From contig CAZZDK010000002.1 in assembly GCA_964652235.1 (NCBI GenBank), positions 38,675 through 102,674 of the forward strand: a stretch of DNA of 64,000 nucleotides, written 5' to 3'. The DNA comes from an uncultured Rhodospirillaceae bacterium (GTDB taxonomy: Bacteria; Pseudomonadota; Alphaproteobacteria; UBA9219). Numbering within the stretch: the first letter of the stretch is position 1; each line of letters begins with the position of its first letter. Positions 1 to 38,167 of the stretch are shown one piece after another. Made by a program: the position numbers and the translations under genes. Under the pieces are notes generated by a model. It did no database searches. It worked only from the letters and a program-made list of their open reading frames with translations, and was not told the DNA's origin.

Positions 1-100
1 TAAAACACTCACTAACTCCCCCACACTCACTAACGTCCGAAAACACAAAAGATTTTCGAGGTGAGTGTGCAGGTGAGTGTCAAACCCAACACTCATGCGC
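1..100. promoter_or_regulatory. Operator-like repeat cluster: two direct CACTCACTAAC copies and two inverted GGTGAGTGT copies upstream of the first phage ORF
   Basis: Motif ACACTCAC occurs four times (2 direct, 2 inverted) within the first 100 bp, upstream of the rightward early operon starting at 220. Confidence 0.35.
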
Positions 101-219: not shown

Positions 220-537
220 ATGAGGACTGATCCGATCAAAGCCCGTGATGCCAACATCTACTGGCGCTATTCCCACACAGGCCGCGTCTATGACGTGCGC
301 GTGCGTGATCGCTACGATCTGGGCGAAAGCCGCGTCACGTCAAGCGGCGCGTTCTGGACGGGCTGGAAACATGCCCGCGCCACAAGCCCCGAAGCCTTGT
401 TCGGTGAAATGCTCTTCCGCTTTGGCTTCACCACGCTTGAAGAAACGCGGATCGCTCTTTTGCAATTCGCCAAGATCGACAATTGCCAATGGGCACGCGA
501 CATGCTGGAGGCCCGCACCTACGGGAGGGTCGCATGA
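220..537 (+). CDS. Hypothetical phage early protein
   Basis: 105-aa ORF with AAGGAGGA ribosome-binding site (SD) upstream (199-209); stop overlaps next ATG (ATGA at 534-537). Confidence 0.4.
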   Translation: MRTDPIKARDANIYWRYSHTGRVYDVRVRDRYDLGESRVTSSGAFWTGWKHARATSPEALFGEMLFRFGFTTLEETRIALLQFAKIDNCQWARDMLEARTYGRVA

Positions 538-965
538 GCAAAGGCAAGAACCTCACCCTCAAAGACGTCTCTGACCGCATCGATCAAGCGGCGCACACCA
601 TGCGCAAGCTGCCCAAGGTCGCCGTGAAGGGGTATTTTAACGTGTGGCCCGCTATCGTCCGCGAAGCGATGGAAGCGTATGGATGGGACGAGATGCATGT
701 CCAACCCGGCCCGCCTTCCGCCCGCCAGATCACGGAGATGGATGAAGTCATGCTTTGGCTCATGTGGTTGGAGCGCGACGAGGTGCGTATCGTTTGGCTT
801 CGCGCCAACGGCATTCGCTGGAAGCGCATCGGGCTTGAGACGGGCTGGTCGGTGCGAAAACTGCAGTACGATTGGCGAATCGCTCTCATGAAACTCGTGC
901 ATCGCTTGAACAATCCGAACGAGAAAATCACGCTTCCTTACAAGCGGCGTATCCAAGGCGGATAA
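534..965 (+). CDS. Hypothetical phage protein (HTH-like, conserved in alphaproteobacterial prophages)
   Basis: ORF 483..965; internal ATG at 534 translationally coupled to upstream ORF; no motif recognised with certainty. Confidence 0.35.
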   Translation: MSKGKNLTLKDVSDRIDQAAHTMRKLPKVAVKGYFNVWPAIVREAMEAYGWDEMHVQPGPPSARQITEMDEVMLWLMWLERDEVRIVWLRANGIRWKRIGLETGWSVRKLQYDWRIALMKLVHRLNNPNEKITLPYKRRIQGG

Positions 966-1114
966 ACAAAAATGCGCAATCGATCTTTAAGCGATTTATT
1001 TGATTGGCAAACCCCATGCGCGTTTTAGTTCTGCGTGTTTTGCGCATTTTCTGGCATGGTTTTGATTATGGTCAGGAGAGTTGCGGACGGGCCAAGCGGC
1101 TTCAACGGCCCAAA

Positions 1115-1400
1115 ACACCGTCCGATACCATCGGACACCCTCCAACACCTTCGCACAGAGGCCGACACCTTCGGGACATGGTCGAACATCATCCGACATC
1201 ATGCGGATAGGATCGCCACTTTGAGCAATCTTAGGACGTTCCCGGCATGGAAACGCATCAAAGATTGCCAGATCAGCGGGACACTATCTGACACCCTTCA
1301 ACACTATCGAACACCATCCGACATCGTTCGACATTGTCGGGACACCTTCGACACTATCGGACATCATCGAACAGTATCGCACATGATGTGACATGATTGG
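1115..1400. repeat. Iteron-like array: about 20 degenerate copies of a 9-10 bp unit (A/T)TCG(G/A)ACA(C/T)C spaced about 10 bp apart, in two clusters (1115-1200 and 1275-1395)
   Basis: Read directly: CCGATACC, ATCGGACACC, GCCGACACC, TTCGGGACAT, GTCGAACATC, ATCCGACATC ... ATCGAACACC, ATCCGACATC, GTTCGACATT, GTCGGGACACC, TTCGACACT, ATCGGACATC, ATCGAACAG; the ORFs predicted across it (1004..1210, 1035..1391) are repeat artefacts. Confidence 0.6.
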
Positions 1401-1628
1401 CCACGCCAAAGCCGCAACGGATACGGCTGCACCGCCCATCCCTTTGAATACAAAAGGTACTTCCCGCCGCATACCCTATGCGGGCGGGCGAGGCCCGATA
1501 GAACCCTACATATAGGGATAAAAAACGGGAAGCCATCCACATGTTGTGGTTTGAAAGGCTCCCCGATAAACACCAAGAAAACAAAAACTTAGCTGCCGCC
1601 TTGAGCGGCTTCCTTTGCATGGATTCTT

Positions 1629-2825
1629 TTGAAGCAGGAATCCGGCCTCCTTAACGCGAGGTTTTCTTTGAATGGTCTGGCTCTATCTGCCGCCGGAGGC
1701 GATCACGCATGCCCAAAAGGGCGCGCGCTGTTCGGCCTCTCGCTCTGCGCGGGTGCGGGCGGGCTTGACCTCGGCCTCCACCTTGCGCTGCCAGACTATC
1801 GAACTGTTTGTTACGTTGAGCGGGAAAGCTACGCCGCATCCTCTCTCGTGGCGCGGATGGAAGACGAGGCCTTGGATCGCGCGCCTGTCTGGGACGATGT
1901 TAAAACCTTCCGAGGCAAAGCGTGGCGCGGCGCGGTGGATATCATCCATGGCGGTTATCCATGCCAGCCATTCTCGATTGCAGGCCGTCAACTTGGCGAC
2001 AAAGACCCGCGCCATCTCTGGCCGGATATCGCGCGGATCGTCCGCGAGATTAAACCGCCCATCTGCTTCTTTGAAAATGTCGGCGGACATTTACGACTGG
2101 GGTTCGAGCAAGTCCACGATGACCTTTGCCGCATGGGTTATCGCGTTAAGGCAGGGTTGTTTACGGCGGAGGAAGTCGGCGCGCCTCATAAACGTGAACG
2201 GTTGTTCATCTTGGCCTACCGTGAGGGTGTCTTCGGCGAACGGGGCCTCACGCAAAGAGATCTCGGCTGGGAACCCGAAGGGGCGGTTGGAAGTGAGCGC
2301 GCAGCTTTGGCTAACCCCGCGCGCGCAGGAGACGACCGAGAAGCAGGAGAGCTTCATAAGGCGCAACGGCGACCGGACGGATCGGTGCTTCGGGTCATTA
2401 ACGGCGCAGACGACGCGATGGCCGACGCCGCGCGCACAGGAGCCCGGAAGCACAAGCGTGGATCACGGCCTCAGCCTAACCGAGGCCAGCAAGGCATGGC
2501 CGACACCCCAATCGACGGATTACAGGGATCGGGGCAATCTCTCGAACCCATGCATCCAGCGGCGGATGGCCATGGGGAAGCAGGTCAACCTGTCCATGAT
2601 GGCGCATCCGATGGCGTACCAGTCTGGCCGCCAGCCCCAGCCAATCACAACGGATGGGAAGGAGTCCCAGCCAGTCTTAAACCCGCTGTTTGTCGAATGG
2701 CTGATGGGCTGGCCTATCGGGTGGACAGACTCCGTCTTTGCGGCAACGGCGTGGTGCCGTTGGTCGCGGCTTATGCGTTTTGCACTCTGGCAACTGAAGC
2801 CATCACAGAAAACGAAACAGAATGA
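1629..2825 (+). CDS. DNA (cytosine-5)-methyltransferase (Dcm family)
   Basis: Motif I LFGLSLCAGAGGLDLGL, catalytic PCQ motif GGYPCQPFSIAG, motif VI-like ENV (CFFENVGG); start codon uncertain (TTG at 1629 in ORF track). Confidence 0.8.
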   Translation: MKQESGLLNARFSLNGLALSAAGGDHACPKGRALFGLSLCAGAGGLDLGLHLALPDYRTVCYVERESYAASSLVARMEDEALDRAPVWDDVKTFRGKAWRGAVDIIHGGYPCQPFSIAGRQLGDKDPRHLWPDIARIVREIKPPICFFENVGGHLRLGFEQVHDDLCRMGYRVKAGLFTAEEVGAPHKRERLFILAYREGVFGERGLTQRDLGWEPEGAVGSERAALANPARAGDDREAGELHKAQRRPDGSVLRVINGADDAMADAARTGARKHKRGSRPQPNRGQQGMADTPIDGLQGSGQSLEPMHPAADGHGEAGQPVHDGASDGVPVWPPAPANHNGWEGVPASLKPAVCRMADGLAYRVDRLRLCGNGVVPLVAAYAFCTLATEAITENETE

Positions 2826-4051
2826 ACTCTTCAACGACGCATAGTCTTGCCAGCAAGATTGAGCTTTGGGATGTGGAAAGGCTTGTGCCTTATGCGAACA
2901 ATCCACGCACGCATTCGGAAACGCAGATTGCAAAGGTCGCGGCCAGCATCGCACGCTTCGGTTTTGTGAATCCCATCTTGGTGGACGCATCAGCCAATGT
3001 CATTGCAGGCCATGGGCGATTACAAGCGGCCAAGCAACTGGCTCTAAAGGAAGTGCCCGTCATTATCCTCGATCATTTGAACGAGGATGAGAAACGGGCT
3101 TACGTCATCGCCGACAATCAGTTGGCCCTTGAGGCCGGATGGGACGACGATCTGCTAAAAGCGGAACTGGGCGCGCTTGCGGAGGTAGATTTCGATTTAT
3201 CCGTCATCGGTTTTTCGGATAAAGAATTGGCAGAGCTTCTGGAAGGTCTGGAAGGCACAGAAGGCAACACGGACGATGATGCCGTGCCGGAAACGCCCAA
3301 CGATCCGAAAACAAAGCCCGGCGATATTTATGTCCTCGGCAATCACCGCTTGCTTTGCGGCGACAGCACGATTCTTGAAAACGTCGAGCGCGTCCTTGAC
3401 GGCGCGCTGGCCGATATGGTGTTCACGGATCCGCCCTACAACGTCGATTACGGCAATACTGCCAAGGACAAAATGCGCGGCAACAACCGCACGATTATGA
3501 ACGACAATCTTGGTGAAGGGTTTGAGGCGTTCCTTTACGATGCATGCGTCAATATGATCGCGGTCTGTAAAGGCGCGATCTATGTTTGCATGTCGTCCAG
3601 CGAATTGCACACGCTTCAAAAAGCCTTCATCGCAGCGGGCGGCAAATGGTCGACCTTCGTGATCTGGGCAAAGAACACTTTCACGTTGGGACGATCCGAC
3701 TACCAGCGTCAGTATGAGCCGATCCTCTACGGCTGGAAGCAAGGCACGGATCATTTCTGGTGCGGCGCGCGCGATCAAGGCGACGTGTGGTTCGTCAACA
3801 AGCCGACGAAGAACGATTTGCATCCGACCATGAAGCCCGTTGAACTTGTCGAACGCGCCGTCCGTAACAGCAGCAAGAGCCGTGACATCGTTCTGGATTG
3901 CTTCGGCGGCTCCGGCAGCACACTCATCGCTTGCGAGAAAACTGGCCGTCAAGCAAGGCTAATCGAATTGGATCCCAAATATTGCGACGTGATCGTTCAG
4001 CGATGGGAAGAGTTTACGGGCAAGAAGGCCGAGTTGGTCTCAGCGGATTAA
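2822..4051 (+). CDS. ParB-like nuclease domain fused to DNA N6-adenine/N4-cytosine methyltransferase (DPPY class)
   Basis: N-terminal ParB/Srx-like region (NPILVD...GHGR), catalytic DPPYNVDY motif, C-terminal FGGSGST motif; ATGA overlap with upstream MTase. Confidence 0.8.
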   Translation: MNSSTTHSLASKIELWDVERLVPYANNPRTHSETQIAKVAASIARFGFVNPILVDASANVIAGHGRLQAAKQLALKEVPVIILDHLNEDEKRAYVIADNQLALEAGWDDDLLKAELGALAEVDFDLSVIGFSDKELAELLEGLEGTEGNTDDDAVPETPNDPKTKPGDIYVLGNHRLLCGDSTILENVERVLDGALADMVFTDPPYNVDYGNTAKDKMRGNNRTIMNDNLGEGFEAFLYDACVNMIAVCKGAIYVCMSSSELHTLQKAFIAAGGKWSTFVIWAKNTFTLGRSDYQRQYEPILYGWKQGTDHFWCGARDQGDVWFVNKPTKNDLHPTMKPVELVERAVRNSSKSRDIVLDCFGGSGSTLIACEKTGRQARLIELDPKYCDVIVQRWEEFTGKKAELVSAD

Positions 4052-5262: not shown

Positions 5263-5408
5263 TTTTTGTCCTTCCGTTTAATGCGTTTCTCATTACATGG
5301 TGATGATCGCTCTTCGTCGCAAGATTATCCACTCAATTAGGGATCATATGATTGCGAAGAACAGCGCGGGTTGATTGTTTGATAATCAGCCCACGCCGTT
5401 CGATCCTT

Positions 5409-5837
5409 TCATTGCTTGGTTCCCACGATTTTGTAGCTGCGCGTCCCGCCTTTCGGCTTTTCGGAAACGATTTGGTAACCACGTTTCTTGCCGAGCGCGT
5501 GCGAGATCGCGGCGCGCGCGGTGTGTTTTTGCCAGCCCGTGACTTCAAGGATTTCATCAAGGGTTGCGCCTTCAGGCCGTTTCATCAATTCGCTTATGCG
5601 AACCAGCTTGGTGAGCTTGCCTTCAGGTTTTTGCTTTTGCTCGTCAGACTCCATGGCCTCGACGGCGGCAAGACCAGCCTGCATCGGCGCAGAGAGTTTG
5701 CTTTCATCGATGGGGCTGCGCGCCTTACCGATGCCTTTAGGCTTGGGTAGGTCGTTGGTTTTTGCCTTGGGTTTAATCGCTGCCTTGACGATGGTTTTCG
5801 GCTTCAGTTTGCTAACTTTGCTTGGTTTTTTGGACAT
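5409..5837 (-). CDS. DUF3489-like protein
   Basis: Lys/Pro-rich N-terminus and C-terminal EGATLDEILEVTGWQKHTARAAIS...KKRGY signature typical of DUF3489; start MSKKPSK at 5837 with GGAGG SD. Confidence 0.45.
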   Translation of the reverse strand: MSKKPSKVSKLKPKTIVKAAIKPKAKTNDLPKPKGIGKARSPIDESKLSAPMQAGLAAVEAMESDEQKQKPEGKLTKLVRISELMKRPEGATLDEILEVTGWQKHTARAAISHALGKKRGYQIVSEKPKGGTRSYKIVGTKQ

Positions 5838-5983
5838 GGTTTGTGTCCTCCTTTCATGCGCCATGAACGCTTCATTCGCGGCGTTTATCCACTCAATTAT
5901 GAGCAATCAGATGGCTTTCTTCGGCTTATTCCGATCATTTGATGATCGCAGCGCGGGGACGCTGGGGCGCAGGAAAATGACAT

Positions 5984-6520
5984 ATGGGAGTCAGTCAACG
6001 AGAATTCGCGGCGCTGTGGGGCAAAAGTCGCGGCGCGGTGCAAAAAGCCATCGCATCGGGCCGTATTTCGCCTGAAGCCGATGGGACAATCGATCCCGAC
6101 AAAGCTCTTGCTGCATTGCGCGTCAACACAGATCCTTCGCAGGTGCGCGGCAAGAAGCGCGTCCCGAAGGCGGCCATCCAATCGGTACAGGAAACGTTGC
6201 AGGAAGCGGGTCATGCCGTCAGCGGCGGGAACAATTTTGTTCAGGCGCGAACGGCAAACGAGGTTCTTAAGGCCCAAGAGCGCAAGCTGCGCGTTCAAAA
6301 GCTCAAAGGCGAATTAATTGATCGCTCTTTGGCGACGGCTCTTGTTTATCAGCTTGCGCGGCAAGAACGCGATGCTTGGCAGATGTGGCCAACCCGCGTG
6401 GCGGCGGCACTTGCCGCAGAAATCGGCGCGGACACGCACTGCGTGCAAACCGCCCTTGAGAAATTTGTGCGCGAGCATTTGGCGCAGCTTGCCGACATCC
6501 AGATCGATTTACGCGCATGA
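5984..6520 (+). CDS. Terminase small subunit (HTH)
   Basis: N-terminal HTH (REFAALWGKSRGAVQKAI), position immediately upstream of and overlapping large terminase. Confidence 0.5.
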   Translation: MGVSQREFAALWGKSRGAVQKAIASGRISPEADGTIDPDKALAALRVNTDPSQVRGKKRVPKAAIQSVQETLQEAGHAVSGGNNFVQARTANEVLKAQERKLRVQKLKGELIDRSLATALVYQLARQERDAWQMWPTRVAAALAAEIGADTHCVQTALEKFVREHLAQLADIQIDLRA

Positions 6521-8451
6521 TCGCCATTAATGAAACACTCGCCTCGTTCGACGGTGCGGACGAGCTTCTGCGCTTCTGGGCAAACGGCCTCACGCCCGAT
6601 CCCGATCACACGGTTTCGAGCTGGGCCGATGAAAACCGCATTCTCTCGCCGCGCGGCGCGAACGAAGCTGGGCCGTGGCGCACCGAGCGAACGCCTTACT
6701 TGCGCGAGATCATGGATTCATGGTCGCCATCTTCGCCTTATCAGCGCATCGTATTGATGAAAGGGGCGCAGCTTGGCGGCTCGGAATGCGGCAACAATTT
6801 CATCGGCTACGTTATTCATCACGCACCGGGGCCGATGCTGGCCGTGCAGCCGACCGTCGAACTTGCCCGGCGTTTTAGTCAGCAACGCATCGATCCTTTG
6901 ATCGAGGAAAGCGCCGTGCTGCGTGAACGCGTGGCACCTTCGCGGGCGCGGGACAGCGGCAACACGATTTTATCGAAGGAGTTTCCCGGCGGCATTCTGG
7001 TCATGACAGGCGCGAACAGCGCGGTCGGCCTGCGCTCGATGCCCGCACGGTATTTATTTCTGGACGAGATCGACGCCTATCCCGCAAGTGCAGGCGAAGA
7101 AGGCGATCCCGTCACGTTGGCCGAGGCGAGAACGCGTACCTTTTCATGGCGGCGTAAAGTGTTCTTGTGCTCCACGCCGACGATCAAAGGTATCTCGCGC
7201 ATCGAGCGGGAATATGAAGCCAGCGACAGGCGCAGATATTTCGTGCCGTGCCCCTTTTGCGGCCACAAACAAATCCTGCTGTTCGAGCGGCTGCGTTGGG
7301 AAAAAGGAAAGGCGGGAACCGTTGCCTATTATTGCGATGACTGCGAAGCGCGGATTGAGGAGCACCACAAGACGCGGATGCTGGCTGATGGAGAATGGCG
7401 GGCCGAGCGGGCGAGCGATGATCCTTTAACGGTCGGCTTTCATATCTCAAGCCTTTACTCGCCCTATGGCTGGCTGAGTTGGGAGCGGATCGCCCGCGAT
7501 TGGGACTCCTCGCAAGGAAAAGACGAAGCCATGAAAAGCTTCAAAAACAGCGTGCTTGGCGAGACATGGGCCGAGAGCGGCGAAGCGCCGGATTGGCAGG
7601 TTCTCTCGGATCGGTGCGAGGCTTACCGGATCGGAACGGTTCCCGCAAAAGGCTTGTTTCTTACAGCGGGCGCGGACGTTCAAAAAGACCGCATCGAGGT
7701 TGATATCTGGGCATGGGGGCGCGGCCTCGAAAGCTGGCTTGTCGAGCATATCGTCATTCACGGCGGGCCGGACGATCAATCGGCATGGCGGGCGATGACC
7801 GATCTGCTGGTACGGACATGGTCGCATGAAAACGGCCCCCGGCTCTCTATCGCCAAACTGGCTATCGACTCCGGCTTCGAGGCCCCTGCTGTCTACGCAT
7901 GGACACGGCGCATGGGCGCGGGCCAAGTGATCGCCGTCAAAGGCATGGAAAGCTTCAATCGCGCAAGCCCTGTCTCCGGTCCGACTTATGTTGATGCAAC
8001 AGAAGGCGGACGCAAGATCAAGCGCGGCGCGAAACTCTGGATCGTCGCGGGATCGACTTTCAAAACGGAGACCTATCGTTTCTTGCGCCTTGCACGTCCT
8101 ACCAGAGAAGAACTTCAGGAAGGCGCGGCCTTCCTTCCCGGCAGCGTCCATCTGCCGGACGGCATTGATACCGAATGGATCAAGCAGCTCACGGCGGAGC
8201 AGCTTGTGACCGTCAAAACCAAGCGAGGCTTCACGCGGCTTGAATGGCAGAAGCTGCGTGAACGTAACGAAGCGCTCGATTGCCGCGTTTACGCCCGCGC
8301 CGCTGCTTGGCTTCTTGGCATTGACCGATTTTCGGAAGGCAGATGGGCAAGTCTTGAGGCAAGCGTCCAGAGGGTGGCGGATCACGATGAAGAGACGCAG
8401 GTCAAGAAACCCCTTCCTGCCAGACGCGTTATTCGGAGCAGCTATCTATGA
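6517..8451 (+). CDS. Terminase large subunit (lambda gpA family)
   Basis: 644 aa, Walker A-like KGAQLGGSECG, size and synteny (small terminase - large terminase - gpW - portal). Confidence 0.8.
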   Translation: MIAINETLASFDGADELLRFWANGLTPDPDHTVSSWADENRILSPRGANEAGPWRTERTPYLREIMDSWSPSSPYQRIVLMKGAQLGGSECGNNFIGYVIHHAPGPMLAVQPTVELARRFSQQRIDPLIEESAVLRERVAPSRARDSGNTILSKEFPGGILVMTGANSAVGLRSMPARYLFLDEIDAYPASAGEEGDPVTLAEARTRTFSWRRKVFLCSTPTIKGISRIEREYEASDRRRYFVPCPFCGHKQILLFERLRWEKGKAGTVAYYCDDCEARIEEHHKTRMLADGEWRAERASDDPLTVGFHISSLYSPYGWLSWERIARDWDSSQGKDEAMKSFKNSVLGETWAESGEAPDWQVLSDRCEAYRIGTVPAKGLFLTAGADVQKDRIEVDIWAWGRGLESWLVEHIVIHGGPDDQSAWRAMTDLLVRTWSHENGPRLSIAKLAIDSGFEAPAVYAWTRRMGAGQVIAVKGMESFNRASPVSGPTYVDATEGGRKIKRGAKLWIVAGSTFKTETYRFLRLARPTREELQEGAAFLPGSVHLPDGIDTEWIKQLTAEQLVTVKTKRGFTRLEWQKLRERNEALDCRVYARAAAWLLGIDRFSEGRWASLEASVQRVADHDEETQVKKPLPARRVIRSSYL

Positions 8452-28772: not shown

Positions 28773-29011
28773 TGTGGACGATCATCACAGGCTGGTTTTC
28801 CAGCAATGCGCTCCGGCTTATCGGCTGGGGCGCAATAGCCGCATCCGTCCTTGCCATCCTGCTGGGGGCGCGACAATCAGGCAAGAATGCTGAACGCTAT
28901 GACCAACTCAAGAAAATCACGGAGATCAAAGATGCCCAGCTTCGCGCCGCGATGGATGCCCCTCGGACTCGTGCTGATCTTGTTAAGCGCCTGCGGGACG
29001 GCAAGTTCTAA
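28773..29011 (+). CDS. i-spanin (Rz-like)
   Basis: N-terminal TM (LIGWGAIAASVLAILLG) followed by charged coiled region; contains the o-spanin start in another frame. Confidence 0.5.
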
Positions 29012-29171
29012 CCCCGCCTGCGTTTGTCCTCCGATCATGGTGTACAGTCGGGAGTTTCAGGAGAAGCTAGCAAAAGAAATTGATACAGCCCCATCGGAAT
29101 CTGCATATCCGATCGCCGTATTAGATTATGCAGCTCTAAGAGATCTGGCAGCAGTCTGTCAGACAAGGTAA
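28932..29171 (+). CDS. o-spanin (Rz1-like outer membrane lipoprotein), overlapped architecture
   Basis: Signal peptide with lipobox LLSAC, Pro/Cys-rich mature part (NPACVCPP); starts inside the i-spanin gene in a different frame and extends beyond it. Confidence 0.55.
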   Translation: MPSFAPRWMPLGLVLILLSACGTASSNPACVCPPIMVYSREFQEKLAKEIDTAPSESAYPIAVLDYAALRDLAAVCQTR

Positions 29172-29182
29172 CCCATAACAGG

Positions 29183-29986
29183 CTATAATGATGCCAATTC
29201 AACAGAGAACTCCTTTGAAGCGCTACAGAAACGCCCCATAAGGCTTCTAAATCTTTCCAAACCATCCGTTGCATAAAAGGTGCTCTGACCCGCGTCTTTA
29301 GAAGTACTAATTAGCTTTTTATCAAGAAGCGCTTTTCTTGCGGTAATGGCAGTCATTTGCGCACTATCGACAAGGGAAACACCTATCGGCATTCTTTTCT
29401 GAATGTTTTTCGATAAAATTGGAAAGTGAGTGCATCCTAAAACCAACGTGTCATAGTCCTCTGTTTTAATTGAATTCAGGTATCGTTGTATTGCCGCGTC
29501 AGCAGCTTCTGTTTCATCCCACCCTTCTTCCGCTAGAGAAACGAGGACATTGCACCCCATGCCCTCGACATGCGCCGTCGGGAGAATTTCTTTAAGTGCA
29601 ACTTCATAGGCTTTGGAACGAATGGTGCCTTCTGTCGCCCAGACAACGATGCGCTTATTTCGGCTTTTCGCCGCTGCCGCCTGCGCACCCGGAGAAATGA
29701 CGCCGACACAAGGTAGGTCAGGCCAATAACGACGTATCGCTTTGAGGCCATGCGCAGTTGCAGTATTACAGGCCACCACAAGCATCTTAACATTTTTTTG
29801 CACGAGCATGTCTGCAATTTCTAGGCAGTACCGCTCAACGGTTTGGGGGGGCTTAGTGCCATACGGAACACGCGCCGTATCACCGACGTATATATAATTT
29901 TCACAAGGCATTAGATCGCGCATAGCGCTATAAACTGTCAAACCGCCAACACCAGAGTCAAAAACACCGATAGCTGCTTGTCCCAT
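29183..29986 (-). CDS. murI: Glutamate racemase
   Basis: N-terminal IGVFDSGVGGLTVY signature and CNTA catalytic Cys region; AT-rich gene. Confidence 0.75.
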   Translation of the reverse strand: MGQAAIGVFDSGVGGLTVYSAMRDLMPCENYIYVGDTARVPYGTKPPQTVERYCLEIADMLVQKNVKMLVVACNTATAHGLKAIRRYWPDLPCVGVISPGAQAAAAKSRNKRIVVWATEGTIRSKAYEVALKEILPTAHVEGMGCNVLVSLAEEGWDETEAADAAIQRYLNSIKTEDYDTLVLGCTHFPILSKNIQKRMPIGVSLVDSAQMTAITARKALLDKKLISTSKDAGQSTFYATDGLERFRSLMGRFCSASKEFSVELASL

Positions 29987-30049
29987 GTTATAGTTTCCTT
30001 GTGTAAAACCTTTGTTTTCAAAAGCCTATGTTTTTTGCTCTTAGCATCT

Positions 30050-30853
30050 TTATTGTATCGGAGATAAAGCATATCCATACTTTGCTTGGCTTGTTCTTCC
30101 GTTGTTTTTCATCCTACTTAGAGTGTATTCATGGAGCTGGTTTCCGATGTCAAAATGCCAAAACTCATTCCGATAATTTGTAAACCCAACTGCGGTCATT
30201 ACACTGTGTAATGTGCGACGGTTTACAAGGCGTGGATCATGAATACAAATCTCACGCGCAGCAAGTCGCTCCTCGAAGAATGCCGTGTGGCTAACAACTG
30301 ACATCTCATCAAAATGCGCGCCCATATTTAGTAAACGAGATGTTTTTTTATCTCTCAGAAGAACATCAACCGATCCACCTGTAATATGTGTCGGCCACGT
30401 GGCCGGATTTTCTGGGCTAAAAGAGTCCGGGTCCGATACATACTGGACGACTTCACGATACACTTGTTCGTTCCGAGCAAAAGGATTCTCTTGCCGTACC
30501 CTAGCCCAGAAAAAATCCCAAATCCCTTTCTGACACGTCAATGGCCTGTATCCATCGACAACAAACAATTCGATTCCGATTGAGGCCAAAACATAATCAA
30601 CCACGGCTAACCGCTCCGCAGCCTCTTTTCTAACCCATACGGAGGGCAGCGCTCCAGATATTGGCTTAAAGTACGGGGCATTTTCTCCATCTGTTCGGGC
30701 ATAGTAATTTTCGCTGGCAATGCCATAGGCCCCAACATCTACTAATGACTCAGAGAATTGCGGGTGGTTCAAATCTACAGACACCGTTCTATAATTTCCT
30801 GTGTCTTCACTATTTTCATAAATTGGAACCGCGCTTGAAATAAAGCCGTTCAT
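30050..30853 (-). CDS. D-alanyl-D-alanine dipeptidase, VanX/DdpX-like (peptidase M15D)
   Basis: VVDGYRPLTCQKGIWDFFW, zinc-ligand-like H/D segment THITGGSVDVLL, and EFWHFDIG resembling the VanX EWWH catalytic Glu/His motif. Confidence 0.6.
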   Translation of the reverse strand: MNGFISSAVPIYENSEDTGNYRTVSVDLNHPQFSESLVDVGAYGIASENYYARTDGENAPYFKPISGALPSVWVRKEAAERLAVVDYVLASIGIELFVVDGYRPLTCQKGIWDFFWARVRQENPFARNEQVYREVVQYVSDPDSFSPENPATWPTHITGGSVDVLLRDKKTSRLLNMGAHFDEMSVVSHTAFFEERLAAREICIHDPRLVNRRTLHSVMTAVGFTNYRNEFWHFDIGNQLHEYTLSRMKNNGRTSQAKYGYALSPIQ

Positions 30854-30873
30854 GTTATTCCTTTCTTGGATCG

Positions 30874-31542
30874 TTACAAATCTCTTCTAAAAACTTGCCT
30901 AATTTTATCCGTCAGATCTCTCATCGGGGCATGATTTTTAGAAAGGCTTGACCAGTTAATTTCAATCAAATTCCCAGAGAAAGAACGATCCACTTCATCA
31001 ATCGATGCCCAGTGATTTTCCCAATTCCAAGATAAGTGGCTGCTCGGATGATGACAGCGGAGACTCTTGATCTTGCCGTCCTGATAGCGAACCCCATTAA
31101 ATAGAATTAAGTGCCCCCCTTTCCCAATTGTCCTGCCGTCCTCATCCTTCTCTCCACCACGCAAGCCGACAGCGACAGAAACAATGCAAACGTTTCCATG
31201 ACTTATAATTTTAGCAATTGTATCTGCGCCAACATTCCGATGGCATTGGCCAGAAACGCCATATTTTGACAAGAGACGAAGCAACCCAGCGTGTATCCAG
31301 CCCTTATCGCAATAAGCCTTCTCTGCAAGACCTTCATTGAGAAGCTCCCACGTTGTTTTTCCGAAACTCTCTTGTTGCAGTTCCTTCACGCCGGACACAA
31401 GCATCTTTACACAAGCAATGCCGCAGGCACGGGGGGACCAATGTCTTGCTTCCTCTTCTGTTGGGCCGCGCTCTGAATCAACCTCAATGATCTGAGAGAA
31501 GAACGGAATCCCCTCAACTACATCTTCTTTACTATTCTGCAT
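30874..31542 (-). CDS. Papain-like/C39-like cysteine peptidase-fold protein
   Basis: Candidate catalytic Cys in SPRACGIACVKML and His in GGHLILFNG as in Peptidase_C39_2/BtrH-like folds; assignment tentative. Confidence 0.35.
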   Translation of the reverse strand: MQNSKEDVVEGIPFFSQIIEVDSERGPTEEEARHWSPRACGIACVKMLVSGVKELQQESFGKTTWELLNEGLAEKAYCDKGWIHAGLLRLLSKYGVSGQCHRNVGADTIAKIISHGNVCIVSVAVGLRGGEKDEDGRTIGKGGHLILFNGVRYQDGKIKSLRCHHPSSHLSWNWENHWASIDEVDRSFSGNLIEINWSSLSKNHAPMRDLTDKIRQVFRRDL

Positions 31543-32499
31543 TTATCCCCCGAGTTTTGCTGTGTGTAAGAGCCAATTAACAACGTGACTTTGTTCATAA
31601 CCGATGCTTTTGGCAGAAGGAACGGAAATGCCATAGTTCCTTCCAAGGCTCGGATATGAGTTAGCCTCAAGAAAATATAAGCCCTTCTCCGTTTGAAGAA
31701 AATCCACTCTTAAAAGCCCATTAAATCGAAGCATTTCGTATGCGGCTCGTGAAAAAGCCTCCAATGCGGTTTGTTCTTTGGGCGAAACGTTTGCTGGTAC
31801 CTCCATCTCAACAGAATGGGACGTTCTTTTTGCTTCTTCATCAAAAATCGCAAACCCATTCTGGAGTGTAATTGAAACTGGAGGCAGAACCGTTACCGCA
31901 ACGCCATCATTCTGCCGAATAATTGGAACGGAGATTTCAACGCCTTTAAGATATGGTTCAACCATAAAAGAACCGTATGTTTTTATAAGTTTGCTTGCCG
32001 ATGCTTCGGCTTCGGCCTCCTCACGAACAAACACAACATCCTGGCCGCCGCCGCCATTCGTTGGTTTGATGATATATCCGTCCTTGTGCTTTCGGCGCAT
32101 AAACGTCCACAAATCAGCAACGCTAGAACAAAGCGTATCAGGTATTGTCAAAATGCCCGATCCGGTCAGCATTTTCTTTGTCAGCATTTTATTTGCGGTC
32201 ATATATGATGAGAACTTACGCGGCCCTGAATAAGGAACGCCAAGCGTTTCAAGAGAATCTCGTAAATCAAACTCTCTGTCTGTTCCCCTGTAATAGGGAT
32301 CTAACAAAAGGGCTTTCCCAGCGTTATGCCGCAGGCGCCCCCAGTTATGGGGAGGAATTGCATATGCCGGAATAATCTCATTCGGTTGATTTTGTATTGT
32401 GAGACATTCAGAAACTTGTTGCGAGACCTCTTCAAGATCTTCTCTCTCAGTTTCTGATCCTGCGTAAATTATATATACTTTGCTCATAATTTTCCTCAC
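31543..32499 (-). CDS. D-alanine--D-alanine ligase family ATP-grasp enzyme (paralog 2)
   Basis: ATP-grasp motifs YIIKPTNGGGGQDVVFV, EPYLKGVEISVPII, RVDFLQTEKGLYFLEANSYP; Ddl-like N-terminus IIYAGSETERE. Confidence 0.6.
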   Translation of the reverse strand: MRKIMSKVYIIYAGSETEREDLEEVSQQVSECLTIQNQPNEIIPAYAIPPHNWGRLRHNAGKALLLDPYYRGTDREFDLRDSLETLGVPYSGPRKFSSYMTANKMLTKKMLTGSGILTIPDTLCSSVADLWTFMRRKHKDGYIIKPTNGGGGQDVVFVREEAEAEASASKLIKTYGSFMVEPYLKGVEISVPIIRQNDGVAVTVLPPVSITLQNGFAIFDEEAKRTSHSVEMEVPANVSPKEQTALEAFSRAAYEMLRFNGLLRVDFLQTEKGLYFLEANSYPSLGRNYGISVPSAKSIGYEQSHVVNWLLHTAKLGG

Positions 32500-33428
32500 A
32501 TGGGCAAGCGGATTTTCTTTAAAAGAAAGGCAACTAGTTCGTCGTAAGTACGCCCTGAAGCCTTCCAGATAGAGGCTAGGTTCCCTGCCTCAGAAAGACC
32601 GGGAACAGTATTTGCTTCAAGCAAATATGCTTGACCCTGCGCGTCAACAAGATAATCGAATCTAACGACTGCGTCACACCCCATAGCTCCATACATTTTA
32701 GCTGATGCCTCACGGACAGATTTTTCAGAATCAGCTGAAATCTCAGACGGCAGGATGTACCGACGTTTATTTTCATTATGTTTGATTTCGTAATCGTATA
32801 GAGCCCCGTCAAAACGCACCTCTAAGAGAGGAAGCGTTATATCGATCTCGGGTTCGCCCGTTATCGCACAGGTGACAAACGAACCATCGATAAACTCTTC
32901 GACGATATATGGTTCATATTTTCTATCACGACTATCAATTTTGTCTTCCAGTTCCTTCAAACTCGATACAATTTCGACCCCACGGCTTCCGCCTCCATAA
33001 ATAGGTTTAAGAATATACTTTTTGTTTTCTTCTGCAGAAAGGACGGGGAGATTCATGTGCGCCTTCGTTGCTTCGAGACGATTAAGAACCCCCGGCGTTA
33101 GAACATTTAATGAGTGCGCCAAGGCTTTAAAACGCAACTTGTCAAACCCAACAATATGAGCATAAGGACGGGAGAAGTTATAGGGAATACCATTTACTTC
33201 ACAAAATGAAGAAAGGGCACCATCCTCTCCATTTTTTCCATGCATGCTGTTAAAAACGACAGATTGCGGCGACGCCTTCAAATCGTGGTCTTTTAAAGGA
33301 AATTCAATCAATCGATTAGGAACCCCGCGTCTGTCTAGCGAGCGAGCGACTGTTGCTGCGGAAATGATAGACCCCTCACGTTCCCAGCTCTCTCCTCCAA
33401 AAACTACAAGTACTGTGCTATTCATCAT
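32496..33428 (-). CDS. ddl: D-alanine--D-alanine ligase family enzyme (paralog 1)
   Basis: VLVVFGGESWEREGSIISA, HGKNGEDGALSSFCEVNGIPY, RFDYLVDAQGQAYLLEANTVPGLSEAG - classic Ddl signatures; ATGA overlap with paralog 2. Confidence 0.75.
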   Translation of the reverse strand: MMNSTVLVVFGGESWEREGSIISAATVARSLDRRGVPNRLIEFPLKDHDLKASPQSVVFNSMHGKNGEDGALSSFCEVNGIPYNFSRPYAHIVGFDKLRFKALAHSLNVLTPGVLNRLEATKAHMNLPVLSAEENKKYILKPIYGGGSRGVEIVSSLKELEDKIDSRDRKYEPYIVEEFIDGSFVTCAITGEPEIDITLPLLEVRFDGALYDYEIKHNENKRRYILPSEISADSEKSVREASAKMYGAMGCDAVVRFDYLVDAQGQAYLLEANTVPGLSEAGNLASIWKASGRTYDELVAFLLKKIRLPM

Positions 33429-33531
33429 CTGTCTTCTCCTTTTTAGATATAGTTCACCCGTTCACTAATCTCGTGTTTCGAGAAAAGCGTTTTAGAAAAT
33501 TCTTAAATGCCCTATTGCCTTCAGAAGGCTA

Positions 33532-33738
33532 TTAAGGGCTTCGCTGAAGACAAAGCCTATTGTAACCGCCTTTTTTGTTTATTTCTTCAGCCTCCTGCCT
33601 CGTGAGAGGGGCTGGATCTGTGCAACAATAAATGCTCGGCGGGCAAATTGCTCCGCAGGCGATGCAATCCCCTTCAACCACAGCAACAATGTTTTGTACT
33701 GAACGCTTGATGTCTTCATTTTTATCTATTTTCGTCAT
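33532..33738 (-). CDS. Cys-rich small protein (68 aa)
   Basis: Motif EGDCIACGAICPPSIYCC (CxxCxxxCP...CC); between MurF-like and Ddl genes in the operon. Confidence 0.3.
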   Translation of the reverse strand: MTKIDKNEDIKRSVQNIVAVVEGDCIACGAICPPSIYCCTDPAPLTRQEAEEINKKGGYNRLCLQRSP

Positions 33739-33753
33739 TTTTCCTCCTTAAAA

Positions 33754-35226: not shown

Positions 35227-35323
35227 AGTCTTTTGTTGTAGACTCTATAACCTTAGTCCTATATTTGCCCATACCCTTCTTTAAGGCATAATGGCGGCTT
35301 TTTCTTGTTGCCGCAGCTGGCCT

Positions 35324-35878: not shown

Positions 35879-36125
35879 GAGGATAACCCGTATCAGTTGT
35901 ACGACGATTAATCTCTAAAGCAGCCAAAGCATTAGCGAAGTGCCAGAGAGAAGCTATGTCCTGATGGGTAAAGCCTTTTGCGATCAGGTCTTGTTGTGAG
36001 CAGTCTCCCAACGCTAATGTCGTTTCGACAATTGCATCTGCCATGTGTGCGACTGGCTCAAACCTTTTATCTGTTTTGGTCGTGATCTGATCTACAATAA
36101 GACGATGGCGAACGGCCTTAGTCAT
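35853..36125 (-). CDS. Hypothetical protein
   Basis: ORF only; overlaps neighbours in operon. Confidence 0.3.
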   Translation of the reverse strand: MTKAVRHRLIVDQITTKTDKRFEPVAHMADAIVETTLALGDCSQQDLIAKGFTHQDIASLWHFANALAALEINRRTTDTGYPHERGARYA

Positions 36126-37449: not shown

Positions 37450-37476
37450 GTTAGGTCTTCGGGGGAAGAAATTGAT

Positions 37477-38145: not shown

Positions 38146-38167
38146 TTCTTGCCTCTGTCCTTCAAAA

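What the first reader, a model, noticed from the sequence alone, without database searches (positions are those of the whole stretch)
1115..1400. Helically phased array of about 20 TCGRACAYC-like 9-10-mers in two clusters upstream of the tandem methyltransferases
A dense repeat of a short motif with about 10-bp periodicity is read directly in the sequence. The two sub-arrays are separated by an approximately 75-bp spacer.

This is not a CRISPR array, because the units are too short and there are no spacers. It is not coding, and the overlapping ORFs are repeat artefacts.

It resembles iterons (origins) or a centromere or repressor binding array. The adjacent ParB-domain MTase is a candidate binder.
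Basis: seen in the sequence. Interest (0 to 1): 0.6.

Follow-up and report, generated by a model that had tools for sequence, protein, structure and literature searches.

The report
Phased decamer array near phage cos
About 22 real, conserved but dispensable ten-base repeats lie between the probable late-gene promoter and the predicted DNA-packaging (cos) site of a lambda-like prophage. They are not its replication origin or a plasmid-type centromere, and are most likely a docking array for a DNA-binding factor that I could not identify.

Summary
There are 10 + 12 co-oriented decamers (consensus aTCGRACAYc) on a 10-bp lattice at 1110-1215 and 1276-1400. These are the two most 10-bp-periodic stretches in the 64-kb window and exceed every one of 200 shuffles.

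The array belongs to a 357-bp non-coding cassette (1080-1436). The cassette lies between a conserved promoter-like region, just after an HTH gene (DUF6362), and the cos site. I place cosN at 1483-1493 by homology to the determined ends of Rhodobacter phage RcKemmy.

In relatives (Micavibrio-like prophages) the cassette has 0, 3-4, 10, 18-23 units, or 4-5 copies of [3-5 decamers + a GCAAT/ATTGC inverted repeat].

Its presence does not follow the replication proteins, the terminase or the ParB-methyltransferase. Separate iteron clusters that do follow the initiator type lie about 1 kb upstream (window 1-95). So an origin is rejected and a centromere is unsupported.

The ACA core is under purifying selection (1/27 versus 22/65 variable columns), so the array is not junk.

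Best guess (about 0.35): one-face cooperative binding of an unidentified protein that blocks or times late transcription. Rivals are a leader-RNA/Rho element, a packaging accessory, and a Chi-like end array.

The parts
534..965 (+). DUF6362 gene (143 aa). It carries a C-terminal HTH-like segment and is the gene immediately upstream of the array in every relative. I read it as a putative late-gene regulator.
   Evidence: Pfam PF19889, E = 2e-30. The homologue in Rhodobacter phage RcKemmy is the last gene of the genome and is annotated 'helix-turn-helix DNA binding domain protein'. The AlphaFold model has low confidence (pLDDT 53) and only residues about 80-126 are helical with pLDDT about 70. 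The regulatory role is inferred from position.
966..1079 (+). Region 1, a conserved promoter/operator-like segment. It holds TGCGCA-type boxes (973-978, 1017-1022, 1032-1037, 1041-1046), an 11-bp inverted repeat AAAATGCGCAA/TTGCGCATTTT (969-979 and 1040-1050), GGCAT (1053-1057), a -10-like TATGGT (1067-1072), then GGAGAG.
   Evidence: It aligns across 17 loci, including ones whose DUF6362 is only 33% identical. The consensus sigma-70 scan finds no canonical promoter, so promoter function is inferred from conservation and position.
1080..1436 (+). The variable cassette that contains the array. It is a clean insertion/deletion relative to array-less relatives.
   Evidence: Blastn colinearity of L026 (identical DUF6362 protein and array to the window's) with array-less L017 stops at the position equivalent to window ~1079 and resumes at ~1437. 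The same pattern holds for L018 versus L006 and L002 versus L004.
1110..1215 (+). Cluster A: 10 decamers (the last is degenerate), consensus aTCsRACAyc, on a 10-bp register.
1222..1271 (.). Inverted-repeat element between the clusters. The arms are GCAATCTT (1225-1232) and AAGATTGC (1261-1268), and they enclose an inner hairpin CGTTCC..GGAAACG.
   Evidence: It is conserved in L029, L002, L018 and L155, with 3 pairs changed on both sides among 5 sequences. In L164, L167, L168 and L202 the same element (TCAGCAAT-N33-AGATTGC, 51 bp) is repeated 4-5 times and alternates with 3-5 decamers at a 96-97-bp period.
1276..1405 (+). Cluster B: 12 decamers plus a degenerate 13th. It contains a conserved 11 + 9 spacing irregularity that restores the register.
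   Evidence: The units align one-to-one without gaps with those of L018, L155 and L020.
1397..1409 (.). Small GC hairpin (TTGGC-CAC-GCCAA) that closes the array. An equivalent hairpin follows the array in all relatives.
   Evidence: Read from the sequences.
1437..1660 (+). Region 2, the conserved cos region. The predicted cosN 11-nt cohesive end is GGCGGGCGAGG at 1483-1493, with the nick between 1482 and 1483. Palindromes follow on the right (candidate cosB).
   Evidence: The window sequence AGGTACTTCC..CCTATGCG|GGCGGGCGAGG aligns with the joined ends of Rhodobacter phage RcKemmy..AGGTTCTTCC..GCTATGCG|GGGGGCGGAAG. RcKemmy has defined ends with an 11-base 5' overhang (PMC8601537). Synteny is the same on both sides. 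The cut site in this phage is inferred, not measured.
1672..4051 (+). Tandem DNA methyltransferases: C5 type (1672-2825) and ParB_N + N6_N4 type (2822-4051). They are the first genes after cos and are not linked to presence of the array.
5984..8451 (+). Nu1-like small terminase (5984-6520) and gpA-type large terminase (6517-8451). They define the phage as a lambda-type cos packager.
   Evidence: GpA_ATPase and GpA_nuclease hits at E = 1e-97 and 1e-96, followed by lambda-family portal, S49 protease and capsid E. The small terminase is assigned from position and its N-terminal HTH.

Best explanation
The array is the main part of an accessory, non-coding cis-element (cassette 1080-1436). The cassette starts within a few bases of the probable late-operon transcription start and lies 80-400 bp to the left of cos.

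I propose that it acts as double-stranded DNA. Each decamer (TCGRACAY plus 2 bp) would be an asymmetric site for one subunit of a sequence-specific HTH or winged-helix-type protein. Sites spaced one helical turn apart would let 10-13 subunits polymerise head-to-tail along one face of each cluster. The GCAAT/ATTGC inverted repeat between clusters would be a nucleation or bending point.

The resulting protein filament, sitting directly downstream of the promoter, would act as a polar block or timer on late transcription, in the manner of a stoperator. That would control read-through into cos, the methyltransferases and the terminase.

What is shown:
- the anatomy of the array and cassette;
- the strict phasing;
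- purifying selection on the ACA core;
- the position relative to the conserved promoter-like region and to the homology-predicted cos;
- dispensability of the cassette;
- independence from the replication, terminase and methyltransferase genes.

What is inferred:
- that the readout is DNA rather than RNA;
- that a protein binds, and which protein it is (candidates: the always-adjacent DUF6362 HTH protein, or a host response-regulator or LexA-like factor);
- that the effect is on late transcription.
For: 1. Phasing is strict. Of 77 spacings, 60 are exactly 10 bp. An 11 + 9 irregularity that restores the register is conserved in four phages. There is no indel in 92 aligned columns although 23 columns vary.

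2. The element is currently under selection. The ACA core varies in 1 of 27 orthologous columns against 22 of 65 elsewhere (Fisher p = 0.0015). The same 8-bp motif is kept in three clades whose neighbouring DUF6362 protein is only 57-66% identical.

3. The motif, not the base composition, is what is conserved. C exceeds G in the window-type arrays, but C is about equal to G in most L164-type arrays.

4. The inverted-repeat element has invariant GCAAT/ATTGC cores at a fixed spacing of about 33 bp. It alternates with decamer blocks at a 96-97-bp period. This is easier to explain by protein-DNA geometry than by RNA folding.

5. The cassette always begins directly after the conserved -10-like box/GGGAGA of region 1. 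It stays attached to region 1 when a gene is inserted between it and cos, as in L018, L020, L155 and L007-L011.

6. L005 carries three units in inverted orientation. A DNA site can tolerate this; a sense-strand RNA element would not.

7. From my own knowledge: 7-8-bp boxes on a 10-11-bp head-to-tail lattice with a TGT/ACA core are how Spo0A (TGTCGAA), TorR (CTGTTCATAT), OmpR and PhoB bind. Arrays of 8-20 short direct repeats in two clusters are how ParR-type proteins coat R1 parC. Co-oriented asymmetric sites downstream of promoters silence mycobacteriophage L5 genes.
Against: - No binder was identified. No phage gene within 10 kb on either side follows presence of the cassette.
- The repeats in the repressor/cro intergenic region are a different motif (GTTTCCWA).
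- The motif does not occur phased anywhere else in the phage.
- The period is 10.0 bp, not 10.5 bp, so sites drift about 17 degrees per unit around relaxed B-DNA.
- Close relatives do without the cassette, so any regulatory role is accessory.
- Region 1 has no canonical -35 box, and the simple promoter scan found nothing. The transcription start is therefore an inference.
- All full arrays are co-oriented with transcription, which an RNA-level function would also predict.
Confidence: 0.35

Rival explanations
1. Leader-RNA element. The cassette would be transcribed from the region-1 promoter as a 5' leader of unstructured CA-rich decamers interrupted by hairpins. It would load host Rho, like rutA-boxB-rutB at lambda tR1, so that RNA polymerase not modified by an antiterminator stops before cos and the late genes. 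Alternatively it would sponge an ACA-recognising RNA-binding protein or endoribonuclease.
For: - It is co-oriented with all flanking genes and starts at the inferred transcription start.
- Window-type arrays are C-rich and G-poor: A 39/19 %, B 30/20 %; L002 32-33/14-15 %.
- The array-hairpin-array layout, and [array + hairpin] repeated 5 times in L164-type loci, fit a rut site followed by a pause hairpin.
- It needs only a universal host factor, which would explain why no phage partner gene is found.
- No intrinsic terminator follows the array.
Against: - C is about equal to G in most L164-type arrays, although the motif is retained.
- The window's C minus G excess is not among the window's extremes.
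- Rho does not require an invariant ACA or an exact 10-nt lattice with a compensated 11 + 9 step.
- G-U and A-C mismatches are equally frequent in the hairpin, so no strand-specific RNA signature is seen.
- No Rfam family matches.
- L005 carries inverted units.
Confidence: 0.2
2. Packaging accessory. The array would lie on the last-packaged side of cos. It would be bound by terminase (a small-subunit ring wrapping one helical turn per subunit) or sensed by the translocating motor, to slow it and improve recognition or cutting of the terminal cos. This would be an extended cosQ-like function.
For: - It lies 80-370 bp left of the predicted cosN in the window, L002 and the L164 type.
- It is co-oriented with the direction of packaging, by analogy with lambda.
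- Cluster sizes of 9-13 units resemble the subunit numbers of small-terminase rings (my own knowledge).
Against: - In L018, L020, L155 and L007-L011 a gene separates the array from cos, and the array stays with the promoter region.
- Across the stretch that includes the small-terminase gene, L018 (array present) and L006 (array absent) are 95.6% identical.
- The core cos region (region 2) is conserved in all relatives without the array.
- RcKemmy has no such array.
Confidence: 0.12
3. Chi-like or end-protection array. It would be a tandem block of a polar host recombination-hotspot motif on the strand that ends 3' at the right cos end. This would switch the host AddAB/RecBCD nuclease from degradation to recombination when it enters the free right end, either after terminase cutting or on injection.
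For: - A 2025 study shows lambdoid cos phages with 20-32 Chi sites in the active orientation, concentrated near the right end (PMC12315714).
- The array is within 0.4-1 kb of the predicted right end, all in one orientation, dispensable, and needs no phage partner.
Against: - TCGRACAY is neither enriched nor skewed in the 20 kb of host DNA available (2 top, 1 bottom) or in the rest of the phage.
- The strand bias of its sub-words is ordinary for coding sequence.
- Known Chi sequences are G-rich on the active strand, whereas here that strand is C/A-rich (my own knowledge).
- Chi explains neither the exact 10-bp lattice nor the inverted-repeat elements.
- These phages carry an AAA_24 ATPase gene that I take to be a Sak4-like recombinase (family assignment from Pfam, function from my own knowledge). 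The Chi-rich lambdoid phages in the 2025 study lack a Rec module.
Confidence: 0.08
4. Iterons of the phage replication origin.
For: - It is made of direct repeats in two clusters flanking a spacer of about 70 bp.
- It lies about 1 kb downstream of the primase gene.
Against: - Presence, size or absence of the array is independent of initiator type. Primase-1013 type: L026 present, L017 absent (90% identical), L005 absent. cl0-a type: L002 present, L008 mini, L004 absent. cl0-b type: L018 present, L006 absent (92% identical), L011 mini.
- Each initiator type has its own co-varying iteron cluster next to its gene: ACACTCAC, GTTCCCC, GTGAATCTG or CGTCACTAG.
- The same decamer motif serves all types.
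- The spacer is not AT-rich (51% A+T against 46% for the window).
- There is no skew inflection.
Confidence: 0.03
5. Plasmid-type partition centromere, parC-like and bound by a ParR, omega-type or ParB protein.
For: The architecture, 10 + 12 short direct repeats in two clusters around a conserved spacer, closely resembles R1 parC and pSK41 parC (my own knowledge).
Against: - No ParA, ParM or TubZ, and no small RHH gene, is adjacent to the array, in the annotated proteins of the window, or in the 10 kb upstream of relatives.
- The window shows phage late genes followed by chromosomal genes, so the phage is integrated.
- The ParB_N domain is fused to methyltransferases that array-less relatives also carry.
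Confidence: 0.04
6. A functionless, recombination-prone minisatellite left over from slippage.
For: - Copy number differs widely between relatives (0 to about 23-33 units).
- L020 looks like an A/B recombination collapse.
- Close relatives lack the array.
Against: - The units are diverged, yet the ACA core is selectively conserved (p = 0.0015).
- Units are orthologous and free of indels across phages whose neighbouring protein is about 57-59% identical.
- Copy number is identical in three independent samples that each carry the full array (L026-L028), and L029 differs only by point changes.
Confidence: 0.08

Closest known systems
Tandem head-to-tail response-regulator / winged-helix sites (Spo0A 0A boxes TGTCGAA, TorR decamers CTGTTCATAT, OmpR and PhoB boxes)
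   Same: Both have an asymmetric 7-8-bp box plus a 2-3-bp spacer, giving a 10-11-bp direct-repeat lattice, a TGT/ACA core, and co-oriented sites next to a promoter. The reverse complement of several units (ACTGTTCGAT, GTGTCGAAG) resembles the TorR and Spo0A boxes. This comparison is from my own knowledge and was not tested.
   Different: Those sites come in sets of 2-6 located upstream of or over the promoter. Here there are 10-13 per cluster located downstream of the probable start site. No cognate regulator is known, and the accompanying inverted-repeat element has no counterpart.
Type II partition centromeres (R1 parC: 2 x 5 11-bp repeats flanking a promoter; pSK41 parC: 8 x 10 bp)
   Same: Both have many short contiguous direct repeats on a helical-turn lattice, arranged as two clusters around a conserved spacer.
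   Different: Here there is no parM/parR operon, the phage is integrated, and the cassette is dispensable and lies at the late-promoter/cos junction.
Mycobacteriophage L5 stoperators
   Same: Both are asymmetric sites that all point one way relative to transcription and lie downstream of promoters. In L5 they act as polar blocks that silence prophage genes.
   Different: L5 sites are 13-bp single sites scattered over the genome and bound by the phage repressor. Here the sites are tandem in one place, and the repeats in the immunity region are a different motif.
Lambda tR1 (rutA-boxB-rutB) Rho-dependent terminator
   Same: Both have two CA/C-rich unstructured tracts split by a hairpin, in an untranslated stretch between an early regulator gene and downstream genes.
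   Different: Lambda rut tracts are not periodic and have no invariant core. The L164-type arrays are not C-rich.
Right-end clusters of Chi sites in lambdoid phages LLS and MD8 (PMC12315714)
   Same: Both are many copies of a short polar motif, all on the strand that ends 3' at the right cos end and concentrated near that end.
   Different: Those Chi sites are dispersed over kilobases of mostly coding DNA and match the host's known Chi. Here the copies form a tight tandem lattice, and the motif shows no enrichment in the host DNA available.
Lambda-type cos (cosQ-cosN-cosB) with a gpA/Nu1 terminase, for the context
   Same: Both have gpA-type TerL, a lambda-family portal, an S49 protease and capsid E. 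The G-rich 11-nt end GGCGGGCGAGG resembles lambda's GGGCGGCGACCT. The junction is homologous to the determined ends of RcKemmy.
   Different: About 4.5 kb of methyltransferase and minus-strand genes lie between cos and the terminase genes. No lambda cos element resembles the decamer array.

Membership tests
Replication-origin iterons | The repeat sequence co-varies with, and is needed by, the element's initiator protein. | tested here: not met
   The same decamer occurs, or is absent, with three different initiator types. Other repeat clusters next to the initiator genes do co-vary with them.
Replication-origin iterons | An adjacent AT-rich unwinding region and/or DnaA boxes, with a strand-composition switch. 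| tested here: not met
   The spacer is 51% A+T against 46% for the window. The cassette has no DnaA box. There is no skew inflection at 1-2 kb.
Partition centromere (parC / parS type) | An array of 8 or more short direct repeats in one or two clusters. | tested here: met
   There are 10 + 12 units.
Partition centromere (parC / parS type) | Lies next to an operon encoding the partition NTPase and the centromere-binding adaptor, on an extrachromosomal replicon. | tested here: not met
   No such genes appear in the annotated proteins of the window or in the 10 kb upstream of relatives. Chromosomal genes follow in the window.
CRISPR array | Repeats of about 24-48 bp separated by unique spacers of similar length. 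| tested here: not met
   The units are 10 bp and contiguous.
Rho utilisation (rut) site | A C-rich, G-poor, unstructured untranslated RNA tract of 70 nt or more. | tested here: inconclusive
   The feature is met in the window, L002, L018 and L155. It is not met in most L164-type arrays. Transcription itself was not testable.
Chi recombination hotspot | The motif is over-represented and strand-skewed in the host genome, and is active in one orientation relative to the entry end. | tested here: inconclusive
   The orientation fits. There is no enrichment or skew in 20 kb of host DNA or 38 kb of phage DNA. The sample is too small to be decisive.
Repressor operator / stoperator array | The same motif serves as the operator for the phage repressor in the immunity region. 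| tested here: not met
   The repeats between the repressor-like and cro-like genes are GTTTCCWA (L026) or GTTGCCWA (L002), not TCGRACAY.
Repressor operator / stoperator array | Asymmetric sites in a single orientation downstream of a promoter. | tested here: met
   All units are on the + strand, starting about 30 bp after the conserved -10-like box. The promoter itself is inferred.
Any protein-binding DNA array | Demonstrated specific binding by a protein. | not testable with these tools
   This needs EMSA, footprinting or DAP-seq.
Lambda-type cos site (context) | Sequence homology to a cohesive-end junction determined experimentally in a related phage, with a gpA-type terminase. | tested here: met
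   Alignment with the RcKemmy ends. RcKemmy has an 11-base 5' overhang (PMC8601537). TerL is gpA-type.
Known RNA families (Rfam 15) | A match at or near the gathering score. | tested here: not met
   The best scores were 20-24 bits against thresholds of 40-105.

The most novel reading that the evidence does not exclude
The cassette could be a new kind of phage chromosome-end element: a telomere-like tandem array at the last-packaged, first-injected cos end. It would work without any phage-encoded partner. It might neutralise or redirect the host end-processing nuclease (a compact Chi-type array for an alphaproteobacterial AddAB whose hotspot sequence is, to my knowledge, not established). Or it might act as a one-turn-per-unit brake that tells the packaging motor that cos is coming.
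Probability: 0.12. Interest if true: 0.75.

Novelty: new variant of a known kind. Interest (0 to 1): 0.45.

Why it matters
If the array is a protein-docking lattice that gates late transcription next to cos, it would be an optional, modular safety catch on phage late genes. It would be built from an unusually long run of one-turn-spaced sites. It would also give a handle on regulation in prophages of the poorly studied, mostly uncultured Micavibrio-like predatory bacteria.

It is a clean natural experiment: close relatives carry 0, 3-4, 10, about 20, about 23-33, or a re-tiled version of the same units. Function could therefore be tested by simple swaps.

The work also gives practical annotations for this phage group: the predicted cos site, the probable late promoter, and the likely true origin iterons, which co-vary with the initiator genes.

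If one of the end-biology readings were true, the interest would be wider, because it would touch anti-nuclease strategies of phages and how packaging terminates.

Tried and rejected
- **Literal motif count.** Counting TCGRACAYC with one mismatch over the window is not above shuffles. I replaced it with lag-10 statistics.
- **Cultured phages, DNA.** Blastn of 900-1700 against cultured phages found no match.
- **Degenerate four-unit pattern in IMG/VR.** RACAY-N2-T-N2 repeated four times gave at least 120 loci. The top-ranked ones I inspected were mostly unrelated, often perfect and AT-rich 10-bp tandem repeats. With no control motif this is uninformative.
- **Region-1 pattern in metagenomes.** Only one true relative, L155, turned up among 6 hits.
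- **Two-module pattern in IMG/VR.** There were 34 hits against about 33 expected by chance, and only one (L202) was real. It has the same DUF6362 context. The cassette therefore appears confined to this phage group.
- **Rfam.** Nothing on either cassette type.
- **Simple promoter scan.** Nothing found. The terminator-like hits were not convincing.
- **RNA folding.** Both strands fold better than shuffles (z = -2.95 and -4.3), so folding does not discriminate.
- **Sigma-54 reading of the conserved GGCAT.** Rejected by eye because no GC lies at the required spacing.
- **DUF6362 structure.** The PDB profile search found nothing. The AlphaFold model reached only pLDDT 53, so I did not run a fold search.
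- **Repressor as binder.** Rejected because the operator motif differs.
- **ParB-methyltransferase, C5-methyltransferase, small terminase, the 105-aa protein and the small coiled-coil gene as partners.** None follows presence of the array.
- **Chi test.** k-mer strand bias and host counts gave no support.
- **Inverted-repeat motif as a general operator.** It is not enriched elsewhere in the phage.
- **Ralstonia phage YO164_3.** A toxin-antitoxin-like pair follows its DUF6362 homologue (my reading of the translated sequence), and there is no array.
- **RcD-cluster right-end repeats** mentioned in PMC8601537 were fetched but not analysed further.
Full report
**1. The observation**

The stretch 1110-1405 reads as two runs of co-oriented 10-bp units. 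Cluster A has 10 units starting at 1110, the last one degenerate. Cluster B has 12 units starting at 1276, plus a degenerate 13th.

The position weight matrix from the window's units is a-T-C-s-R-A-C-A-y-c, about 7.5 bits. Pooling 93 units from five phages gives ATCGRACAYC.

Identity at lag 10 in 100-bp windows is 0.58 for B and 0.52 for A. These are the two highest values in the whole 64-kb window (mean 0.247). The maximum in any of 200 dinucleotide-preserving shuffles is 0.49. Lags 20 and 30 peak as well. The periodogram peaks at 10.0 to 10.1 bp.

Of 77 neighbour spacings, 60 are 10 bp, 10 are 11 bp and 7 are 9 bp. Three phased units in a row occur nowhere else in the window.

A plain count of the 9-mer over the whole window is not significant. 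The signal is therefore the local lattice, not the genome-wide motif count.

The overlapping ORFs have no family hits. Homologous arrays differ by indels that break the reading frames.

**2. Genomic context**

The window begins inside a lambda-like prophage.
- The late region holds a gpA-type large terminase (6517-8451), a lambda-family portal, an S49 protease and capsid protein E.
- From about 29 kb there is a low-GC island, and from 43.7 kb there are ordinary chromosomal genes.
- The array lies in the 660-bp gap between a DUF6362 gene (534-965) and two DNA methyltransferases.

Relatives found through the DUF6362 protein come from Micavibrio, 'Rhodospirillaceae', 'Bdellovibrionales' and other alphaproteobacterial metagenome bins and from viral contigs. 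They share one gene order:
- repressor/cro-like HTH genes;
- an early operon (AAA_24 ATPase, helicase, primase or AAA_25 initiator);
- a 105-aa gene;
- DUF6362;
- the gap;
- methyltransferases;
- a few minus-strand genes;
- small and large terminase.

**3. The gap contains cos**

A cultured relative, Rhodobacter phage RcKemmy, has the DUF6362 homologue as its last gene. Its first genes are a ParB-like gene, three minus-strand genes, and then the terminases. This is the same order as in the window, but cut open in the gap.

RcKemmy has defined ends with an 11-base 5' overhang (PMC8601537). Its joined ends read ..AGGTTCTTCC..GCTATGCG|GGGGGCGGAAG... They align with the window's ..AGGTACTTCC..CCTATGCG|GGCGGGCGAGG.. 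and with the same block in all relatives.

I therefore place cosN at 1483-1493. The array then lies 80-370 bp to the left of cos. By analogy with lambda, that is the last-packaged and first-injected end of the virion DNA. This placement rests on homology and has not been measured.

**4. Anatomy of the gap**

Region 1 (966-1079) is conserved in 17 loci, even where DUF6362 is only 33% identical. It contains TGCGCA-type boxes, an 11-bp inverted repeat, GGCAT, a -10-like (T/C)ATGAT (TATGGT at 1067-1072) and then GGGAGA. It has no canonical -35 box, and the simple scan calls no promoter. I read it as an activator-dependent late promoter with DUF6362 as the likely regulator. That is inference.

Region 2 (1437-1660) is the conserved cos region.

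Between the two regions lies a cassette (1080-1436) that is a clean indel. Each pair of a phage with the array and a close relative without it is colinear up to about 1079 and again from about 1437.

**5. The cassette in relatives**

| Locus or group | State of the array |
|---|---|
| Window, L026-L029 | 22 units. The array is identical in L026-L028; L029 differs only by point changes |
| L002 | 23 clear units, about 33 if degenerate ones are counted |
| L018, L019, L021 | 18 units |
| L155 | 19 units |
| L020 | 11 units in one cluster without a spacer. It starts like cluster A and ends like cluster B, so it is probably a recombination collapse |
| L007, L008, L009, L011 | only the last 3-4 units |
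| L001, L017, L003, L004, L006, L170 and the distant L013-L015 group | none |

The spacer between the clusters carries an inverted repeat, GCAATCTT..AAGATTGC, around an inner hairpin. It shows a few two-sided changes among five sequences.

In L164, L167, L168 and L202 the same two building blocks are re-tiled. There are 4-5 copies of a 51-bp TCAGCAAT-N33-AGATTGC element, alternating with 3-5 decamers at a 96-97-bp period.

A targeted pattern scan of the viral collection found this architecture only in the same DUF6362 context.

**6. It is under selection, and it stays with the promoter**

Cluster B aligns unit by unit, without a gap, among the window, L018, L155 and L020. These phages' neighbouring DUF6362 proteins are only 57-59% identical to the window's. 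Even an 11 + 9 spacing irregularity that restores the register is shared.

In these orthologous columns the ACA core varies in 1 of 27, against 22 of 65 elsewhere (Fisher p = 0.0015). This argues against a neutral minisatellite.

In L018, L020, L155 and L007-L011 a small gene lies between the array and cos, and the array remains directly after region 1. This ties the array to the promoter side rather than to cos.

**7. What it is not**

*Origin.* Presence of the array is independent of the replication module. Three initiator types each include phages with and without the array at 87-96% protein identity.

Each initiator type has its own repeat cluster at or just after the 3' end of its gene:
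- ACACTCAC/GTGAGTGT, 10-15 copies, for the primase-1013 type. This includes window 1-95 and the array-less L017 and L005.
- GTTCCCC in L167.
- GTGAATCTG in L002.
- CGTCACTAG in L018.

These clusters behave as iterons should. The decamers do not.

*Centromere.* There are no partition genes, and the phage is integrated.

*ParB-methyltransferase as binder.* It is present in all sufficiently long relatives regardless of the array.

*Phage repressor as binder.* The repeats in the immunity region are a different motif.

*Known RNA family.* None matches.

**8. What it most likely is**

The features that need explaining are:
- an 8-bp asymmetric motif kept while base composition drifts;
- an exact one-turn lattice with a compensated irregularity;
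- fixed-geometry inverted repeats between blocks;
- a position starting at the probable transcription start;
- dispensability;
- the absence of any linked phage gene.

A DNA-level array for cooperative head-to-tail binding of an HTH or winged-helix-type factor, acting as a polar block or timer on late transcription, accounts for the first four. Box size, period and the TGT/ACA core resemble Spo0A, TorR, OmpR and PhoB tandem sites. Copy number and the two-cluster layout resemble ParR-parC. Single orientation downstream of a promoter resembles L5 stoperators. These resemblances come from my own knowledge and are not membership claims.

The weak points are the unknown binder and the 10.0-bp rather than 10.5-bp period. 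I put this reading at about 0.35.

**9. Rivals**

*Leader RNA / Rho (about 0.2).* It explains the orientation, the array-hairpin-array layout (as in lambda rutA-boxB-rutB) and the lack of a phage partner. It does not explain the invariant ACA, the exact lattice, the L164-type arrays that are not C-rich, or the inverted units in L005.

*Packaging accessory (about 0.12).* It fits the closeness to cos. It is weakened by the loci where a gene intervenes. It is also weakened by the 95.6% nucleotide identity across the stretch that includes the small-terminase gene in L018 (array) and L006 (no array).

*Chi-like end array (about 0.08).* A recent study describes Chi sites clustered at the right end in lambdoid phages (PMC12315714). 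I found no enrichment or skew of the motif in the limited host and phage DNA available.

*Others.* Origin (0.03) and centromere (0.04) are contradicted or unsupported. A neutral minisatellite (0.08) is disfavoured by the selection test.

**10. Verdict**

This is a real, lineage-restricted, composite cis-element whose mechanism is unresolved. It belongs to the general kind 'phased short direct-repeat arrays', but in an undescribed setting: an optional cassette at the junction of the late promoter and cos, built from decamer lattices plus inverted repeats, with no cognate gene.

I rate it a new variant of a known kind, with interest 0.45. The decisive experiments are footprinting or pull-down, Term-seq with and without bicyclomycin, cassette deletion/inversion/re-spacing, virion end mapping, and a whole-genome Chi-type k-mer analysis of the host.

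Noticed in passing
window 1-95 (continues upstream in L026 9284-9560): There is a dense cluster of ACACTCAC / GTGAGTGT 8-mers in both orientations inside the 3' end of the primase gene. Window copies are at 5-12, 23-30, 61-68 and 73-80, with a variant at 88-95. The cluster is present in all phages with this primase type, whether or not they have the decamer array. Other initiator types have their own repeats at the same place. This is probably the real origin of replication.
   Followed up: partly
window 1437-1660, cosN predicted at 1483-1493: This is a conserved hairpin-rich block homologous to the joined cohesive ends of Rhodobacter phage RcKemmy. The predicted 11-nt end is GGCGGGCGAGG. Palindromes to its right (CCCTACATATAGGG, CCACATGTTGTGG, GGGAAGCC/GGCTTCC) are candidate terminase-binding (cosB) sites.
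   Followed up: partly
window 966-1079: This is a conserved promoter/operator-like region with three to four TGCGCA-type boxes and the 11-bp inverted repeat AAAATGCGCAA/TTGCGCATTTT. In distant relatives (L013, L014) the boxes change to TTGCAAC together with a diverged DUF6362. That would fit DUF6362 binding there.
   Followed up: partly
window 5326-5340 and 5886-5900: The 15-mer TTATCCACTCAATTA, which contains a DnaA-box-like TTATCCAC, occurs twice. The copies lie in the two intergenic regions on either side of a minus-strand gene (about 5406-5838) that I assign as DUF3489-like by synteny, upstream of the small terminase gene.
   Followed up: no
window about 1623-1645; also L001, L164, L170 at the equivalent place: Two GANTC sites (GGATTC .. 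GGAATCC) lie in the arms of a hairpin just upstream of the methyltransferase genes. Relatives also carry a pair of GANTC sites there. This might be methylation-sensitive control.
   Followed up: no
window 29000-43600: This is a low-GC (44-47%) island, mostly on the minus strand. It encodes a Mur ligase, a D-Ala-D-Ala-ligase-like ATP-grasp enzyme, an Asp/Glu racemase, HTH proteins and a protein with an LPG-synthase-C domain. It lies between the phage tail genes and the chromosomal GGDEF-EAL gene at 43670.
   Followed up: no
L005 10717-10750: Three decamers lie in the opposite orientation (GATAATGTGA, the reverse complement of TCTCACATTA, like the L002 units) just upstream of cos. This phage otherwise lacks the array and carries a different insert of about 210 bp.
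   Followed up: no
L026 1190-1270; L002 940-1000: The gap between the repressor-like and cro-like genes holds three direct repeats: GTTTCCWA in L026 and GTTGCCWA in L002. These are probable immunity operators, arranged as direct rather than inverted repeats.
   Followed up: no
L164 1564-4287: The early-operon DEAD/ResIII helicase of this relative is 907 aa instead of about 563 aa. It carries Hint and LAGLIDADG homing-endonuclease domain hits, which suggests an intein.
   Followed up: no
L018, L020, L155, L007-L011, directly after the array: A small acidic, probably coiled-coil protein of unknown function (about 110-200 aa, MTDPQTTD...) is encoded between the array and cos in one clade only. 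It has no Pfam hit.
   Followed up: no
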